Shown: positions 10,396-15,469 of the stretch, piece by piece
How positions within the stretch are numbered: position 1 is the stretch's first letter
Layout of the letters: every line of letters starts with the position of its first letter
From: a virus
Length of the DNA: 15,469 bases
Reading direction: 5' to 3' (one strand)
Virus genome (UHGV): UHGV-1756799
Translations under genes and position numbers: made by a program
The notes under the pieces: model-generated
What the model was told of the DNA's origin: nothing
The model's input: only the letters and a program-made list of their open reading frames with translations
Database searches by the model: none

Positions 10396-12488
10396 CCTCC
10401 GGAAGTCAGCCAGGGGTTAACATCGTCAGTTACTGTTTTCTTCCGTTTTTGTTTTTTAACAGGCGTGGATACCGGTTCCGGTGTGGGTGACGGTTCGGTA
10501 CTGTCCGGGACACACTCCAGCCAGGTTTCCCGGCTCGCCCACTCCGGTGCATCCGGCCAGCGGATCTTTTCGTATCCATGCAGAATGACCAGAGCCTCGG
10601 CATACACCATCAGGTCAAAAGCTTCGTTGGCACCGCGACCCGGCTTACTCCATTTCCCGTCACTGCTCCGCTCTTCATACGTCAGTTCGTCGTAAAACCA
10701 GCTCCCCAGCCAGTCAGGGAAATGCACATAGCCGGGACCTGGCGAGTCACGCCATAACGCGTTATTCACCCGGTCTTTCAGGGCATCCGTCTGAAGAAGC
10801 CAGAGCGGCACATCACCTGCGGCCTGCGCCCGGCGGCCCGTTCGTCCGGTGTTATCAGGGAATGTACGGCTGATCAGTTTTGCGCGCCGGATGCTGTCAC
10901 CCTTAAACAGGTAAATACGTTTACCAAGGCCATCACGACGGCAACGACGCCAGAATTTATAGGCATTATCAGTGACCCCGTCTTCACCGCCGGAGTCCAC
11001 CGCCATTGCCATCAGTCGCATTTGTTGAGAAGGATCGGAGGCCAGCGGCCAGCTTTTATGAAAAACATCCGTCAGCAGGACATCCCAGTCTTCCGGATAG
11101 CTGGCCGGATCAATTCGCTGGCTCTCCCCGTCGCTGTCACCGCGCAATGACTGCGTGATGTTGTAACGATCAATAATCCAGCGTTCGCCACGGCTGCCAT
11201 AGCCCGTTACCTGAACCACAAAACGGCGATGACGTCCCGCCTGCACATCCACTGTCGCCACAAGGAAATTAACGCCATCCGGCACACTGCGGGAAGGAAC
11301 TGGCTCTGCCCGCTGCTCAAGCAATTCACTTTTTCGTTGCTCCATGCTGGCGCGGGGAAGATAAGGTAATCCCCAGTCGGTATTGATAACCGTCTTGAGT
11401 GTCTCTTCACTTCCGGTTGTCTCGTATTCCTGTTCTGCAGTAAGCAGTTTGTAAACGAGTTGCGAGAGTGTCTGATAAGCAGCTGCCGGACCCTCCATCC
11501 AGAATGACGCAATACGTGAACGCCGGGGATCACCATAACGACTGCCATCTGCATTGATGGATTCACCATCCCGTAACCAGACCCCACGTCCGTTCAGCTC
11601 GCGTTTTTGTTCAGGCAAAATCCGTCCTGAACAGGAAGGACACTGAATATAAGCCGCCTCACTTGCCAGCACAGGATCGGCAATATCACGGAAACCAGCA
11701 ACCACATCGCCGCAGGGCTGAAAATACTCACCACAGTGTGGACAGGGCCAGTACCAGCGACGGCGATCGCCACGGTTATAGAGCGACAGGATCCCCGTGG
11801 TTGGTGGAGCCTCATGCGGTGAAGTCCGTCGCCATTTCACATCCTTCACATCCCTGCCGGGGGAACTCTCCACCAGCGTCATACCACTGGACATAAATGT
11901 GGTGGTACGTTTTGAGGCAAGAGAGAAGGCATCCCCCTCACCATCAATATCTTCCGGAAAACGGTCATAATCCGTCAGCGCCACGCATTTATAATCTGAT
12001 GAAGACATGATATTGACTGACGGCCAGCCGATTTTCAGGTAGTTGCCAGCAAGGAATGTTCTGTCATAAACGTTGTTGTCATTTTTGTTCGGACTCAGGC
12101 GACTGACCACTTCCGGGCTGACGCGAAACGTTCTGGCGAGTCGTTTTTTGGAGTGTTCGCGGGCTTTTTCCTCCGTCATCTGAATGATCAGCATATCAGC
12201 AGGATCGCAAATCACGTTGTAAATCACCCAGCCGTCAATCAGGCCGATAGTCTTGCCGGTTCGTGCCGGGCCAACAAATATCACTGCGTCGTATTCACGC
12301 GAGGCCAGGCAGTTCATAGGCTCAATAACATACGGTGCCACCAGCGGATCCCACGGGACTGAGTTCCCTGCCCCCATAGGCACCCGCATATACTGAGCAA
12401 CGGCATCAGCAACCCGCATTCGTCTCGGTGCGCGAAGGATATAACCTGAATCGGTTCGTGCTGCCTTTGCGGTTTCCTGATTCAGCAT
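10386..12488 (-). CDS. Terminase large subunit, GpA family
   Basis: 700-aa ORF with Walker A-like VGPARTGKT, a CPHCGE zinc-finger-like motif as in lambda gpA, and acidic nuclease-domain residues; start overlaps the small-subunit stop as TAATG. Confidence 0.9.
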   Translation of the reverse strand: MLNQETAKAARTDSGYILRAPRRMRVADAVAQYMRVPMGAGNSVPWDPLVAPYVIEPMNCLASREYDAVIFVGPARTGKTIGLIDGWVIYNVICDPADMLIIQMTEEKAREHSKKRLARTFRVSPEVVSRLSPNKNDNNVYDRTFLAGNYLKIGWPSVNIMSSSDYKCVALTDYDRFPEDIDGEGDAFSLASKRTTTFMSSGMTLVESSPGRDVKDVKWRRTSPHEAPPTTGILSLYNRGDRRRWYWPCPHCGEYFQPCGDVVAGFRDIADPVLASEAAYIQCPSCSGRILPEQKRELNGRGVWLRDGESINADGSRYGDPRRSRIASFWMEGPAAAYQTLSQLVYKLLTAEQEYETTGSEETLKTVINTDWGLPYLPRASMEQRKSELLEQRAEPVPSRSVPDGVNFLVATVDVQAGRHRRFVVQVTGYGSRGERWIIDRYNITQSLRGDSDGESQRIDPASYPEDWDVLLTDVFHKSWPLASDPSQQMRLMAMAVDSGGEDGVTDNAYKFWRRCRRDGLGKRIYLFKGDSIRRAKLISRTFPDNTGRTGRRAQAAGDVPLWLLQTDALKDRVNNALWRDSPGPGYVHFPDWLGSWFYDELTYEERSSDGKWSKPGRGANEAFDLMVYAEALVILHGYEKIRWPDAPEWASRETWLECVPDSTEPSPTPEPVSTPVKKQKRKKTVTDDVNPWLTSGGWL

Positions 12489-12982
12489 TACTCCTCCTGC
12501 TGTAATTCCTCCTCATCATCCGCACCTGCTTCAGTCACCCGCAGGGCTATCTGATCGCGCAGATCATCAATAATGGACTGAACACGGCTCACAGCGGCAG
12601 GCTGCAGACCGCAGTCACGTTCAAGAATATCCGGTAATGTCTCCAGCACCTGCACGACCGCTTTTGCCCAGATGGCAAACTCCCGTCTGACATCACTGGC
12701 CGGAATGAGTTGTGCCGTTTCCTGTTCGAACTTAAGACGCTCACGTTCAGACTGATACCAGGCTTTGCGCTCATGCGCGTCCATTTCGCCTTCTGCAACC
12801 GGCGGTGGTAATGCCAGAAATGCCGACACAATATCAACCACCCGATAAAGCTTGAGGTTGCTTTCATGCCCCCCTGCAACGGGTAGATTTTGCAGCCTTG
12901 CCGCAGCAGTCTGGCGATGTACACCTGACAATGCCGCCAGTTGACTGATATTCAGCGTCAGATTTTTTAACTCTCGATCCAT
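12488..12982 (-). CDS. Terminase small subunit (Nu1-like), N-terminal HTH
   Basis: 164 aa directly upstream of the large terminase; N-terminal helix-turn-helix-like segment (LNISQLAALSGVHRQTAAARL) and acidic C-terminus; RBS GGAG 5 nt upstream. Confidence 0.75.
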   Translation of the reverse strand: MDRELKNLTLNISQLAALSGVHRQTAAARLQNLPVAGGHESNLKLYRVVDIVSAFLALPPPVAEGEMDAHERKAWYQSERERLKFEQETAQLIPASDVRREFAIWAKAVVQVLETLPDILERDCGLQPAAVSRVQSIIDDLRDQIALRVTEAGADDEEELQQEE

Positions 12983-13085
12983 ACCCGCTCCAGAATGTTT
13001 TAAACATGCATCTTGCGAACAACTTTAGGCAAACGGTGTTAGTGATGAACAAAAAACAATCAGAATCGACACCATAAAAATAAAT

Positions 13086-13116
13086 CCACTGTAATATCAA
13101 TCAATTACAGTAGTGG
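13086..13116. promoter_or_regulatory. Imperfect inverted repeat with an embedded IHF-consensus match (candidate cosB-type terminase/IHF binding region)
   Basis: CCACTGTAAT...ATTACAGTAGTGG inverted repeat; TATCAATCAATTA (13095-13107) fits WATCAANNNNTTR; lies between the GC-rich element and the small-terminase start. Confidence 0.35.
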
Positions 13117-13159
13117 TGATGACGAATAAAATTTCAAAAACTAGCCTTTTTCCGCGACG

Positions 13160-13192
13160 CTCCCGCCCCGTGGCAGGGGCCCCCACCGGGAG
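13160..13192. promoter_or_regulatory. GC-rich nested palindrome, candidate cosN-like terminase cleavage site
   Basis: CTCCCG-CCCC-GTGGCA-GGGG-CCCCCAC-CGGGAG: outer CTCCCG/CGGGAG and inner GCCCC/GGGGC inverted repeats in a sharply GC-rich island inside AT-rich DNA, about 180-210 bp upstream of the terminase small-subunit start, comparable to cos-Nu1 spacing in lambda. Confidence 0.35.
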
Positions 13193-13197
13193 GACCC

Positions 13198-13220
13198 GAC
13201 AGCCTGACAGCCTGACAGCC
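13198..13220. repeat. Tandem direct repeat, about 2.9 copies of the octamer GACAGCCT
   Basis: gacagcct gacagcct gacagcc read directly from the sequence, adjacent to the palindrome. Confidence 0.85.
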
Positions 13221-13356
13221 GTGACGAGCATCTGATACAGCGCTTTACATAATGGCATAGGAATAATTCAGAAGGACATCACAGCATGCCCACACAAATT
13301 AGTGTGAGTGTCCTGTTTCTTCCTACGCACAGGACTGACGAGCATGAGGGGAAAAT

Positions 13357-13524
13357 ATGCGAACCATAAATGCCTCATCTTCAGCAATGCAGCCGGCATC
13401 CGAACAGGACGATATTGTAAATTCACCTAATTACGAGGACATTGCAGTAGTTGAATTGCAGCTCTGTATTAGCCTGACAGTGACAGAATGCGATATTGAC
13501 TCTGTCACAGGTGAAATAGTTTGA
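13357..13524 (+). CDS. Hypothetical small acidic protein, 55 aa
   Basis: Not in the ORF track (below 60 aa). ATG at 13357 with GAGGGG 5 nt upstream; translation MRTINASSSAMQPASEQDDIVNSPNYEDIAVVELQLCISLTVTECDIDSVTGEIV. No homolog recognised; it converges on the 68-aa ORF with only 20 nt between stops and no terminator. Confidence 0.25.
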   Translation: MRTINASSSAMQPASEQDDIVNSPNYEDIAVVELQLCISLTVTECDIDSVTGEIV

Positions 13525-13544
13525 ATGATTAGCAGTTATGGTGC

Positions 13545-13751
13545 TCAGTCAACCACCAGGGAATAATCCTTCGAATTCTTATCGTGCTTCACCAACGCTG
13601 CCTCAATTGCCCTGAATGCTTCCAGAGACACCTGATGTTCTATACATGCAATTACAACATCCGGGTAACTCATAGAAATGGTGCTATTAAGCATATTTTT
13701 TACACGAATCAGATCCAACGAGAGTTCATCAGCAGATTGTTCTTTATTCAT
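13545..13751 (-). CDS. Hypothetical small protein, 68 aa (possibly the counterpart of K-12 Qin ynfO by position)
   Basis: ATG start with GGAG 7 nt upstream; lies between the terminase/cos region and the ydfO-like gene, where K-12 Qin carries a small gene between nohQ and ydfO. I do not recognise the sequence itself. Confidence 0.45.
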
Positions 13752-14051
13752 TTTGTCGCTCCATGCGTTTGCTCGTCATCTAGCGGTTAAAATATTACTT
13801 CAAATCTTACTGCATAAAAGAGGAAAAGTATGAAAGTTTGAGTACATCGACCTTACATACATCTGTCGGTTGCATATCCCTCCTGGATGCCAGCAAGGCT
13901 CAATTTTGTTACGCAATCAACACTATTCATTAAAAACAGGCTTAATATTTGACATAAATCATCAACAAAACACAAAGAGGTCAGACCAGATTAAAACAAT
14001 AAACACGATAATGCAAACTACGCGCCATCGTATCACATGGAAGGTTTACCA

Positions 14052-14462
14052 ATGGCTCAGGCTGCCATTTTTAAAGAAATATTCGATCAAGTGCGTAAAG
14101 ATTTAAACTGTGAATTATTTTATTCTGAGCTAAAACGTCACAATATCTCACTTTATATTTACTATTTAGCCACAGATAATATTCACATTGTGTTAGAAAA
14201 CGACAACATAGTGTTAGTAAAAGGACTCAAAAAGGTTGTAAATGTTAAATTCTCCAGAAACAAACATCTTATAGAGACCTCCTATAATAAGTTGAAATCA
14301 AAAGAAATCACATTTCAACAATACAGGGAAAATCTTGCTAAAGCAGGAGTTTTCCGATGGGTTACAAATATCCAGGAACACCAAAGATATTACTATGCCT
14401 TTGATAACTCATTACTATTTACTGAAAGCATCCAGAAAACTACACAGATCTTACCACGCTAA
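14052..14462 (+). CDS. ydfO: YdfO-like protein (DUF1398 family), prophage moron
   Basis: 136 aa from the second ATG ([11 protein letters not shown]...), which has GGAAGG 7 nt upstream; the first ATG at 14037 lacks an RBS. Matches my recollection of K-12 Qin YdfO and its position next to gnsB and the Nu1-like gene. Confidence 0.6.
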
Positions 14463-14470
14463 ACCATAAC

Positions 14471-14499
14471 GTCCGGCTTCTCTCACTCCTGAGCCGGAC
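14471..14499 (+). terminator. Hairpin downstream of ydfO-like gene (weak candidate terminator)
   Basis: GTCCGGCT-13 nt-AGCCGGAC, 8-bp stem beginning 9 nt after the stop; large loop and no clean T-tract. Confidence 0.3.
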
Positions 14500-14551
14500 T
14501 GCATTGGTTTAATAAAAACCATCAACAATTGTGATTTAGATATTCGGAACC

Positions 14552-14574
14552 ATTCAAATATAACAAAACCCCGT
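14552..14574 (-). terminator. Candidate intrinsic terminator for the gnsB-like gene
   Basis: Minus-strand CCUCG-UUUUUA-CGGGG (one G-U pair) followed by UUUUGUU, about 40 nt after the gnsB-like stop. Confidence 0.4.
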
Positions 14575-14613
14575 AAAAACGAGGTTTATGGATAAATTTT
14601 ATTATTGAATACA

Positions 14614-14790
14614 TCAGATTAAATTAATCTTGACATCATAGCTTTCAAGACCCGTCATTTTTTCCCGTGCGGTAAACTGAATACTGGTAACTTCTTTCCC
14701 GGTCTTTTTCTTAAGTTCAATAATTTTTTTTGTTATATATTCAGAAATATCTGCTTCTGCTTTTGTTTTTAAGTTTTCAATATTCATCAT
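14614..14790 (-). CDS. gnsB: GnsA/GnsB-family protein, 58 aa
   Basis: Not in the ORF track (below 60 aa). Translation MMNIENLKTKAEADISEYITKKIIELKKKTGKEVTSIQFTAREKMTGLESYDVKINLI; the FTAREKMTGLESYDVKI segment matches E. coli GnsA/GnsB as I recall them; RBS AAGAGGAAA upstream. Confidence 0.8.
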   Translation of the reverse strand: MMNIENLKTKAEADISEYITKKIIELKKKTGKEVTSIQFTAREKMTGLESYDVKINLI

Positions 14791-14958
14791 TTCCTCTTTT
14801 AGTCTGTTATGACTTTCCAGTTACACAGTAAGTCGATTATATGGTGCAAACGTGTAAAAGATAAGATGAAACATCGCAATAATCAACATACGATAGTCTA
14901 AATTTTACACAAACAGACAAAGAGAATTTTCCTGAATTATCAATACAATAGCATCAAA

Positions 14959-15189
14959 TCAACTCAAGAGCCTTATTGCTGCTTCCAGAATTTCTTCTGA
15001 AGTAACATGTCGATCCGCGGCTACATAAATGACTTTATGATCTCCGGTCAGAGATGGAAACCCTGCGGCCATTACAGTAAGGTGTGTTTTTTCGCCATTT
15101 GGATATTCACGCATGATGGTGTTAACTCCAGTCATCGCTGGCACTACCACTGCTGGTTCAGAGTTAAAAAAAACTATGATTTTTTTCAT
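14959..15189 (-). CDS. Small protein, 76 aa, upstream partner of the gnsB-like gene (YmcE/YnfN-like by position and size)
   Basis: ATG at 15189 (MKKIIVFFNSEP...); the track start at 15231 is TTG and lies in the terminator. Same strand as and 168 nt upstream of gnsB, like ymcE-gnsA and ynfN-gnsB in K-12. Weak RBS; sequence not recognised with certainty. Confidence 0.5.
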   Translation of the reverse strand: MKKIIVFFNSEPAVVVPAMTGVNTIMREYPNGEKTHLTVMAAGFPSLTGDHKVIYVAADRHVTSEEILEAAIRLLS

Positions 15190-15233
15190 GATGTTACCGT
15201 AGTATGTGAGTATCCATCGAATAGATACCAAGC

Positions 15234-15253
15234 AAAAAAGCTCCCGAAGGAGC
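15234..15253 (-). terminator. Intrinsic terminator (possibly bidirectional)
   Basis: Minus-strand GGCUCC-UUCG-GGAGC(C) with a UUCG tetraloop followed by UUUUUU; the plus-strand side is also followed by T-rich sequence. Immediately after the stop at 15262 of an upstream minus-strand ORF. Confidence 0.6.
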
Positions 15254-15261
15254 CTTCATTT

Positions 15262-15418
15262 TCACTTTTTTAAATCCAACGACAGACGGCTGGCATTTAA
15301 GTATTGTGAAATATTATCAAATGTAATCATCATTGATTTACAAAAGATACATTTTGCCCCGAAAGGATTCATGTCAGAAACATCAAAAGATGATGTTCTA
15401 TACTGGGAACCATGACAA
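15262..15418 (-). CDS. C-terminal fragment of an unidentified minus-strand gene (truncated by the contig end)
   Basis: Open minus-strand frame ending at TGA 15262-15264 (...YRTSSFDVSDMNPFGAKCIFCKSMMITFDNISQYLNASRLSLDLKK) and followed by a strong terminator; the track ORF 15262-15447 extends into adapter sequence, so only 15262-15418 is genomic. Confidence 0.25.
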
Positions 15419-15469
15419 CTGTCTCTTATACACATCTCCGAGCCCACGAGACATCTCAGGATCTCGTAT
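15419..15469 (+). other. Illumina Nextera (Tn5 mosaic-end) adapter read-through; not biological sequence
   Basis: CTGTCTCTTATACACATCTCCGAGCCCACGAGAC, then an 8-nt index-like ATCTCAGG, then ATCTCGTAT (start of the P7 sequence). Confidence 0.95.

What the first reader, a model, noticed from the sequence alone, without database searches (positions are those of the whole stretch)
13357..13751. Convergent pair of unassigned small ORFs (55 aa and 68 aa) between cos and the ydfO-like gene
Both ORFs have plausible Shine-Dalgarno sequences and ATG starts. Neither resembles a protein I can name. They converge with only 20 nt between stops and no intervening terminator, and the 68-aa gene is divergent from the ydfO-like gene across a 300-bp AT-rich region. 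This is the least explained stretch of the window and the most likely place for an undescribed small accessory function (immunity, regulation or anti-defence).
Basis: inference. Interest (0 to 1): 0.55.

Follow-up and report, generated by a model that had tools for sequence, protein, structure and literature searches.

The report
Known lambda gene plus chance ORF
The 68-codon gene is this prophage's copy of ybcW/lambdap79, a conserved lambda gene of unknown native function that a 2026 preprint reports as the trigger of the Vulcan anti-phage NADase, and the 55-codon ORF facing it is most likely a chance reading frame in non-coding DNA next to cos.

Summary
Both ORFs exist exactly as described: 13357-13524 (+), 55 aa, and 13545-13751 (-), 68 aa, with 20 nt between the stops. 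They are not equivalent.

The 68-aa ORF is a real gene that already has a name. It is the orthologue of E. coli K-12 DLP12 YbcW and of phage lambda lambdap79 (62/68 identical, PHROG 657). It occurs in about 37% of complete E. coli genomes. It has no indel in about 170 related loci, and its substitutions are enriched at third codon positions. It points the same way as the late transcript that runs from the lysis genes across cos into the terminase genes. The literature shows it is non-essential in lambda, H-NS/Hha/PdhR-regulated in K-12, and, per a September 2026 preprint, the activator of the NIR-HEAT NADase defence protein Vulcan. The predicted fold is a small acidic three-helix bundle with no informative structural match, so the native function is still unknown.

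The 55-aa ORF (PHROG 4035, auto-annotated only) is what chance predicts: 63% of shuffles of this intergenic region give an ATG ORF at least as long. Its start and frame are lost in the related clades, and frameshifts occur even beside identical ybcW copies. It shows no codon-position signal.

Verdict: already known; low interest.

The parts
13545..13751 (-). ybcW/lambdap79 orthologue, 68 aa. A real protein-coding gene for an acidic (pI 4.9) predicted three-helix-bundle protein.
   Evidence: It is 62/68 identical to lambda p79 and 91% identical to K-12 YbcW. It matches PHROG 657 at E=5e-47. PGAP annotates it as WP_001031431.1. There is no indel in about 170 loci. Third-position substitutions number 10-13 against 6-7 at each of positions 1 and 2 in the comparisons with the mEp460 type (L006, L038, L039), and pN/pS ranges from 0.2 to 0.95 over the informative pairs. 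Diverged homologues at 54% and about 40% identity keep the core YPDVVxACI..VSxExFxAIEAxL. AF2 gives pLDDT 77, with the core at 86-92.
13759..13762 (-). Shine-Dalgarno GGAG of ybcW.
   Evidence: It lies in the sequence CAAACGCATGGAGCGACAAA|ATG. The element is invariant in all four clades aligned.
13357..13524 (+). 55-aa ORF (PHROG 4035). Most likely a chance, non-coding ORF.
   Evidence: Shuffles give an ORF this long 63% of the time. The ATG is ACG and there are 1-nt indels in mEp460/HannyBb, an indel in PhiR30_1, and no start codon in lambda/DLP12. Frameshift variants occur in L048, L053, L068, L072 and L088, whose ybcW is 100% identical. pN/pS is about 0.6-1.3 in the cross-clade comparisons and differences are flat across codon positions. 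PGAP and the Tritos annotation do not call it.
13399..13399 (.). Mosaic junction. Homology to lambda/DLP12 starts here, inside the 55-aa ORF. To the left lies sequence linked to the DUF1441-terminase/cos module.
   Evidence: Megablast and blastn alignments to lambda and K-12 start at window 13399. In lambda the equivalent stretch is the non-coding gap between the ylcI-like stop and the p79 stop.
13480..13508 (.). Hairpin GTGACAGA-N13-TCTGTCAC in the shared 3' region. The stem is invariant and the loop varies between clades. It is not a canonical terminator.
   Evidence: Searches show the hairpin and its conservation pattern. No T-run or terminator call was found. The surrounding 181 nt fold no better than shuffles, z=-0.45.
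13752..14036 (.). AT-rich divergent control region between ybcW and the DUF1398 gene. It contains an exact copy of the K-12 PdhR box at 13975-13991.
   Evidence: G+C is 37.5%. The PdhR SELEX site ATCTGGTCTGACCTCTT matches exactly (PMC7660256). The 150 nt upstream of ybcW are conserved across clades.
13157..13170 (.). Approximate cos cleavage region of this DUF1441-terminase phage type.
   Evidence: The deposited right end of the linear phage Tritos genome aligns to window 13169. The DUF1441 small terminase gene lies at 12488-12982 (-).

Best explanation
The locus holds one real gene and one chance ORF.

The 68-aa ORF (13545-13751, minus strand) is the orthologue of lambda lambdap79 and K-12 YbcW. 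It encodes a soluble, acidic, roughly three-helix-bundle protein. It is the last small gene on the lysis side of cos and points the same way as the lysis, terminase and head genes. It is therefore transcribed by the Q-antiterminated late transcript on its way across cos. This step is shown for lambda by CRISPRi polarity and is inferred here from gene order. In lysogens it is also transcribed from its own promoter in the AT-rich spacer shared with the DUF1398 gene. In K-12 that promoter is H-NS/Hha-silenced and PdhR-dependent. The protein is dispensable for plaque formation.

Its one demonstrated activity comes from lambda p79, which is 91% identical. It switches on the NIR-HEAT NADase defence protein Vulcan, causing NAD+ depletion and abortive infection. 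I infer that it acts as a small protein-binding module that the HEAT repeats recognise. I also infer that its benefit to the phage is an accessory function, such as host modulation or counter-defence. That function remains unidentified.

The 55-aa ORF (13357-13524, plus strand) is not a gene. It is an open frame that happens to span the recombination junction between the cos/terminase module and the lambda-like ybcW 3' flank.
For: Identity of the 68-aa gene:
- It is 62/68 identical to lambda p79, matches PHROG 657 at E=5e-47, and phage records annotate it as YbcW.
- Synteny is the same in lambda and DLP12.
- It is found in 1990 of 5426 complete E. coli genomes.

Coding constraint on the 68-aa gene:
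- There are no indels in about 170 loci, substitutions are enriched at third positions, and changes cluster in the first 16 residues.
- Genuine homologues at 54% and about 40% identity keep the core motif.

Orientation and expression:
- rrrQ, rzpQ, cspI, gnsB, ybcW, terS, terL and portal are all on the same strand.
- The CRISPRi study states that p79 is non-essential but scores as essential because of polarity on the late transcript.
- K-12 expression data come from PdhR (with the box conserved here), Hha and MotB/H-NS.

Defence trigger:
- All seven lambda-vir escapers of Vulcan deleted lambdap79, and co-expression with Vulcan is toxic.

Fold:
- AF2 with a 9-sequence alignment gives pLDDT 77 and a helical bundle.
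- pI is 4.9 and net charge is -4.

The 55-aa ORF as chance:
Against: The native function of YbcW is not established by anything here. No Pfam, NCBIfam, PDB or BFVD match is informative.

pN/pS for ybcW is only moderately below 1 in some pairs (0.2-0.95). Divergence is small, so the selection test has limited power.

Whether this 91%-identical allele triggers Vulcan is untested. It carries 6 substitutions (D9E, P10L, V12L, K40Q, N58K, M60S).

Late-transcript expression in this prophage is inferred from gene order, not measured.

The 55-aa ORF has a plausible SD and ATG. It is intact in about 46 of 171 sampled loci. Some pipelines have called it (PHROG 4035; 95-member cluster). Translation of a clade-specific peptide cannot be excluded.
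Confidence: 0.85

Rival explanations
1. The 55-aa ORF is a real, evolutionarily young, clade-specific small protein gene. It would form a functional convergent pair with ybcW, for example as an immunity or anti-defence module.
For: An ATG is preceded by GAGGGG. The frame is intact with only point substitutions in most window-type loci. It matches PHROG 4035 at E=1e-41, and a 95-member cluster of auto-annotated hypothetical proteins is seen on at least 1000 contigs.
Against: All cluster members are near-identical, so the match says nothing about constraint. The frame is destroyed in the mEp460 type (about 80 loci) and has no start codon in the lambda type (about 31 loci). Five window-type variants carry frameshifting indels although their ybcW is 100% identical. 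pN/pS is about 1 and there is no third-position excess. An ORF this long arises in 63% of shuffles. There is no Pfam, NCBIfam or PADLOC hit. PGAP does not call it.
Confidence: 0.08
2. YbcW is functionally tied to cos or DNA packaging rather than being a free-standing accessory gene. It would be a packaging accessory factor shared by lambda-like phages and their satellites.
For: In every phage or prophage context examined, ybcW is the last co-directional ORF before cos and the small terminase gene. A homologue at about 40% identity in a Salmonella PICI-like island sits between gpD-like and Nu1-like genes. It ends about 45 nt before a lambda-like cosQ/cosN sequence.
Against: It is dispensable for lambda plaque formation. 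Vulcan escapers delete it, and the literature scores it non-essential. It is found next to two unrelated small terminases, Nu1 in lambda and DUF1441 here, with the mosaic junction lying between it and cos. Qin has cos and nohA without it. It is acidic, which argues against DNA binding. The second diverged homologue (P0159, L128) has no recognisable cos next to it. The satellite case rests on a single genome.
Confidence: 0.07
3. The convergent arrangement is an RNA-level regulatory unit (an excludon or antisense pair). Plus-strand transcription through 13357-13545 would control ybcW, and the conserved hairpin would act as a processing or termination signal.
For: In K-12 the ybcW-ylcI pair is listed as a convergent excludon from RNA-seq. 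The 3' flank shared with lambda (13399-13544) is 86-90% conserved. The hairpin stem at 13480-13508 is invariant while its loop varies. A machine-learning study flagged two intergenic mutations downstream of lambdap79 as lowering lambda infection efficiency.
Against: This window lacks ylcI, and no convincing plus-strand promoter lies upstream. There is no Rfam hit. The fold energy is not different from shuffles, z=-0.45. The flank is conserved no more strongly than the CDS beside it. There is no T-run on either side of the hairpin.
Confidence: 0.07
4. YbcW is a small winged-helix/HTH DNA-binding regulator.
For: The single-sequence AF2 model has three helices plus a beta-hairpin. Its best Foldseek PDB matches are winged-helix domains such as cullin WHB, MCM8 WH and AhrC-N.
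Confidence: 0.05

Closest known systems
Phage lambda lambdap79 (47738-47944) and E. coli K-12 DLP12 YbcW (b0559); PHROG 657
   Same: Both are 68 aa and 91% identical to the window protein. The start, stop and SD are the same. The position is the same: between the DUF1398 gene (ybcV / lambda p78) and cos, co-directional with late transcription. The upstream control region, including the PdhR box, is also the same.
   Different: There are six substitutions, four of them near the N- and C-termini. Here the gene sits in a Qin-like right arm (gnsB, ynfN, cspI) joined to a DUF1441-terminase head module instead of Nu1. The antisense ylcI-like DUF3950 gene between it and cos is missing.
YlcI / YnfO (DUF3950): the real convergent neighbour of ybcW in lambda and DLP12
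   Same: It occupies the same slot as the 55-aa ORF, between cos and ybcW, on the strand opposite to ybcW. It forms a convergent pair that RNA-seq lists as an excludon.
   Different: The 55-aa ORF has no DUF3950 or other Pfam match. It overlaps sequence that in lambda is the non-coding gap downstream of ylcI, and it is not conserved.
Small non-essential phage proteins that activate abortive-infection sensors. The documented case is lambdap79 activating Vulcan. T7 Ocr activating PARIS and T4 Stp activating PrrC are analogies from my own knowledge.
   Same: These are small, dispensable phage proteins whose presence alone switches on a toxic defence effector. Escape occurs by gene loss.
   Different: Ocr and Stp have known counter-defence functions. 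No such function is known for YbcW, and nothing here tests it.
Lambdoid 'moron'/lysogenic-conversion genes in the same arm, such as bor (own knowledge for the class)
   Same: It is an AT-rich, independently promoted, H-NS-silenced accessory gene located between the lysis cassette and cos. It is expressed from cryptic prophages.
   Different: Unlike bor, ybcW is co-oriented with the late transcript and encodes a cytoplasmic protein rather than an envelope protein.

Membership tests
YbcW / lambdap79 (PHROG 657) | Full-length sequence similarity to lambda p79 / K-12 YbcW | tested here: met
   62/68 identical with no gaps. PHROG 657 match at E=5.2e-47 over residues 1-68 of 68.
YbcW / lambdap79 (PHROG 657) | Conserved core motif YPDVVxACI...VSxExFxAIEAxL kept in diverged members | tested here: met
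   These columns are invariant in alignments A3 and A4, which include homologues at 54% and about 40% identity.
YbcW / lambdap79 (PHROG 657) | Synteny: last small ORF before cos, on the strand of the lysis and terminase genes, divergent from a DUF1398 gene | tested here: met
   The mEp460 type lacks the DUF1398 neighbour.
YbcW / lambdap79 (PHROG 657) | Activates the Vulcan (NIR-HEAT) NADase on co-expression | not testable with these tools
   This was shown for lambda p79 only (bioRxiv 10.64898/2026.09.04.749371). The window allele differs at 6 residues.
DUF3950 (YlcI/YnfO), as candidate identity of the 55-aa ORF | Match to the Pfam DUF3950 profile, or similarity to YlcI | tested here: not met
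   The 55-aa protein has no Pfam family at E up to 1. The YlcI coding sequence lies outside the region homologous to the window.
Protein-coding gene (55-aa ORF, PHROG 4035) | Reading frame and start codon conserved in diverged relatives, with a purifying-selection signature | tested here: not met
   The start is lost, the frame is shifted or there is no start codon in the other clades. Indels occur in close relatives. pN/pS is about 1.
Known anti-phage defence or toxin-antitoxin components (PADLOC) | Significant match of either ORF to a defence-system protein model | tested here: not met
   The 55-aa ORF has no hit. The 68-aa protein has only a non-significant hit, E=0.021 at 12.5 bits.
Known RNA families (Rfam 15) | Covariance-model match in 12400-15469 on either strand | tested here: not met
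   There are 0 matches at E up to 1.
Winged-helix DNA-binding domain | Confident structural match including the beta-wing, and a basic recognition surface | tested here: inconclusive
   The matches are weak (E at least 0.18) and arise only with the low-confidence single-sequence model. The alignment-based model has no wing. The protein is acidic.

The most novel reading that the evidence does not exclude
YbcW is not a random accessory gene. It would be a late-expressed protein-binding factor with a counter-defence or packaging-linked role shared by lambda-like phages and capsid-forming PICI-like satellites. A homologue at about 40% identity sits directly upstream of a lambda-like cos and a Nu1-like gene in a Salmonella island. 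Vulcan would then be guarding against that activity rather than merely recognising a passive marker.
Probability: 0.12. Interest if true: 0.5.

Novelty: already known. Interest (0 to 1): 0.15.

Why it matters
The practical value is annotation. The 68-aa 'hypothetical protein' carried by about a third of E. coli genomes should be labelled YbcW/lambdap79, a reported activator of the Vulcan NADase defence system. The facing 55-aa ORF, which many automatic annotations call, should not be treated as a gene.

Biologically, prophages with this allele are predicted to be restricted in Vulcan-carrying hosts. Natural ybcW-less arrangements such as Qin may then represent escape variants. What ybcW does for the phage remains an open question. 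It is a narrow question about one small, Escherichia-restricted family.

Tried and rejected
- Pfam, NCBIfam, PADLOC and Rfam scans gave no informative family for either ORF.
- A PDB sequence-profile search gave no hit at E up to 10.
- The search for distant homologues was swamped by lambda spike-in and nanopore control-strand contamination. Only two genuine diverged homologues emerged, P0159 and P0264. Neither has further relatives in IMG/VR or in the phage collection.
- I considered the 13480-13508 hairpin as a bidirectional terminator or structured RNA. I rejected this because there is no T-run, no terminator call, and a fold z-score of -0.45.
- I considered the 55-aa ORF as a diverged ylcI/DUF3950. 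I rejected this because it has no profile hit and aligns to the non-coding flank of ylcI in lambda.
- The lambda ribosome-profiling paper (Liu et al. 2013, cited from memory) could not be retrieved.

Full report
**Observation**

The first runs 13357-13524 on the plus strand, has an ATG start and encodes 55 aa, with GAGGGG 6-11 nt upstream. The second runs 13545-13751 on the minus strand, has an ATG start and encodes 68 aa, with GGAG at 13762-13759. Their stop codons are 20 nt apart. No terminator-like site is predicted between or next to them. The 68-aa ORF is separated from the divergent DUF1398 (ydfO/ybcV-like) gene by 285 nt of 37.5% G+C.

To the left lie a DUF1441-type small terminase gene (12488-12982, minus strand) and cos. 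The deposited end of the linear phage Tritos genome maps to window 13169.

**Setting**

The window is 100% identical to prophages in many E. coli chromosomes. In strain 118UI the gene order on one strand is rrrQ, rzpQ, cspI, ymcF, ynfR, ynfN, gnsB, then the 68-aa gene, DUF1441 terS, terL and portal. Only the DUF1398 gene is on the other strand. PGAP annotates the 68-aa ORF (WP_001031431.1, hypothetical protein) and does not call the 55-aa ORF.

The same stretch from window 13399 rightwards is 88% identical to the right end of phage lambda (47454-48090) and to K-12 DLP12.

**The 68-aa ORF is YbcW/lambdap79**

- It is 62/68 identical, without gaps, to the lambda protein and 91% identical to K-12 YbcW, b0559.
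- It matches PHROG 657 end to end at E=5e-47.
- Several phage records label it YbcW.
- It has no Pfam or NCBIfam family.
- Megablast finds the CDS in 1990 of 5426 complete E. coli genomes.

In about 170 related loci from IMG/VR and annotated records the 207-nt CDS never carries an indel. Against the mEp460-type allele, substitutions fall 6/6/11 on codon positions 1/2/3. pN/pS ranges from 0.2 to 0.95 over the informative pairs, and replacements are concentrated in the first 16 residues.

An exhaustive search of 1.8 billion cluster representatives returned mostly corrupted copies of lambda control DNA. It also returned two genuine diverged homologues, P0159 at 54% identity and P0264 at about 40%. 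Both keep the core YPDVVxACI..VSxExFxAIEAxL. The ORF is therefore a real protein-coding gene of a narrow, essentially Escherichia-lambdoid family.

**What is known about it**

A CRISPRi essentiality map of lambda scored lambdap79 as essential. The authors state that the gene is non-essential and that the score reflects polarity of the roadblock on the late transcript. This fits the gene order seen here: the gene lies in the path of the Q-dependent late transcript from the lysis genes across cos into the terminase genes.

In K-12 the gene is also expressed on its own. A PdhR SELEX site lies in the ybcV-ybcW spacer, and both mRNAs fall about ten-fold in a pdhR mutant. That 17-nt box is present unchanged at window 13975-13991. 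Hha binds the region and induces ybcW 17-fold. Overexpression of T4 MotB, which the paper reports co-purifies with H-NS and alters H-NS-dependent repression, raises ybcV and ybcW more than 1000-fold.

Most relevant is a September 2026 preprint. It reports that all seven lambda-vir escapers of the NIR(DUF4062)-HEAT defence protein Vulcan had deleted lambdap79 by recombination with Qin. It also reports that co-expressing lambdap79 with Vulcan is toxic, and names lambdap79 the activator of Vulcan-mediated NAD+ depletion. Qin indeed has ynfO-ydfO without ybcW.

**Structure**

The protein is acidic, with pI 4.9 and net charge -4. The most economical reading is a small protein-binding module. This fits recognition by HEAT repeats, but the native partner is unknown.

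**The 55-aa ORF**

It matches PHROG 4035, and a 95-member cluster of auto-annotated hypothetical proteins exists. All members are at least 90% identical, so this shows only that gene callers pick it up. The evidence against it being a gene is as follows.

1. An ATG ORF of at least 55 aa appears in 63% of dinucleotide shuffles of the 562-nt intergenic region.
2. Homology with lambda begins at 13399, inside the ORF. In lambda and DLP12 the equivalent sequence is the non-coding gap between the stop of the ylcI-like DUF3950 gene and the stop of p79. The frame there has no start codon.
3. In the mEp460/HannyBb type (about 80 loci) the ATG is ACG, and two 1-nt indels leave a different 34-aa ORF. PhiR30_1 also has an indel.
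4. Five window-type variants (L048, L053, L068, L072, L088) carry frameshifting indels in this stretch while their ybcW is 100% identical.
5. Over the shared 126 nt, pN/pS is about 0.6-1.3 in the cross-clade comparisons, and differences are spread evenly over codon positions.
6. There are no Pfam, NCBIfam or PADLOC matches.

I conclude that it is a chance ORF spanning a mosaic junction. I leave about 8% for a translated clade-specific peptide.

**RNA-level alternatives**

In K-12, ybcW and ylcI are listed as a convergent excludon, but ylcI is absent here. The shared 3' flank contains a hairpin, GTGACAGA-N13-TCTGTCAC at 13480-13508, whose stem is invariant and whose loop varies between clades. 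No T-run follows it on either strand. Rfam finds nothing. The 181-nt region folds no better than shuffles, z=-0.45. The flank is no better conserved than the CDS. I record it as unexplained but minor.

**A lead on native function**

The homologue P0264, at about 40% identity, lies in a Salmonella island with a DUF927 primase, PerC, gpE-like and gpD-like capsid genes, the YbcW-like gene, a lambda-like cosQ/cosN sequence about 45 nt after its stop, and a 111-aa Nu1-like gene. This conserved position just upstream of cos in both phage and satellite could hint at a packaging-linked role.

Several facts argue against that. The gene is dispensable. It sits next to two unrelated terminase types. Qin lacks it, and the satellite case is a single genome. 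I rate this idea at about 7% on its own. The broader counter-defence or packaging-linked reading I rate at about 12%.

**Verdict**

The stretch does contain a small accessory gene connected to phage defence. That gene is the already described ybcW/lambdap79, and its supposed partner is not a gene. Novelty: already known. Interest: low.

Noticed in passing
L126:1-4860 (Salmonella enterica serovar Glostrup; also L127): This is a PICI-like island. It carries a DUF927 primase, PerC, lambda gpE-like and gpD-like capsid genes, a YbcW-like gene at about 40% identity, and a lambda-like cosQ/cosN sequence ('acgggtcctttc...') about 45 nt after that gene's stop. It also has three 'gtgtcggt/accgacat' R-like repeats and a truncated 111-aa Nu1-like gene. 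It looks like a capsid-forming or packaging-redirecting satellite of a lambda-like helper.
   Followed up: partly
window 13203-13218 and 13473-13480: The octamer CCTGACAG occurs three times on the plus strand between cos and ybcW, twice in tandem next to cos. There are 4 copies in the whole window against 0.44 expected, and no shuffle reached 4. The third copy is CCTTACAG in the mEp460 type.
   Followed up: partly
window 13480-13508: The hairpin GTGACAGA-N13-TCTGTCAC lies downstream of ybcW. Its stem is invariant in the window, mEp460, PhiR30_1, DLP12 and lambda types, while its loop carries several substitutions. It is not a canonical terminator. A machine-learning study reported intergenic mutations downstream of lambdap79 that lower lambda infection efficiency.
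   Followed up: partly
window 13308/13344-13430 (+): A second plus-strand frame ending at TAA 13428-13430 ('...GIRTGRYCKFT') recurs with different N-termini. It is 28/40 aa in the window, 47 aa in the mEp460 type, 46 aa in PhiR30_1 and 17 aa in lambda. It is probably chance, but I did not test it.
   Followed up: no
window 13975-13991 (-): This is an exact copy of the K-12 PdhR SELEX box ATCTGGTCTGACCTCTT, located in the ybcW / DUF1398-gene spacer (PMC7660256).
   Followed up: yes
window 14037-14462 (+): PGAP starts the DUF1398 (ydfO/ybcV-like) gene at the position equivalent to 14052, giving 136 aa (MAQAAIF...).
   Followed up: no
loci L009-L045; proteins P0028-P0120 and many of P0121-P0266: Most apparent YbcW homologues outside Escherichia are lambda control DNA or nanopore control-strand contamination, many with sequencing-error frameshifts. 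Examples are Veillonella, Pseudomonas, Streptomyces, Cohnella, the plant Dovyalis caffra, and thousands of 3.5-kb ENA contigs. They inflate the apparent breadth of the family.
   Followed up: partly
window 13215-13231 and 13329-13345: These are a 17-nt direct repeat, ACAGCCGTGACGAGCAT and ACAGGACTGACGAGCAT, 114 nt apart on the cos-distal side. They lie in the segment that travels with the DUF1441 terminase module.
   Followed up: no
L128:273-464 (Logan contig SRR35261337_157): A second diverged YbcW homologue (P0159, 54% identity) lies at the edge of another satellite-like element with AlpA, REP_ORF2-G2P, DUF7828 Zn-ribbon and UCP030791 genes. No recognisable cos is adjacent.
   Followed up: partly
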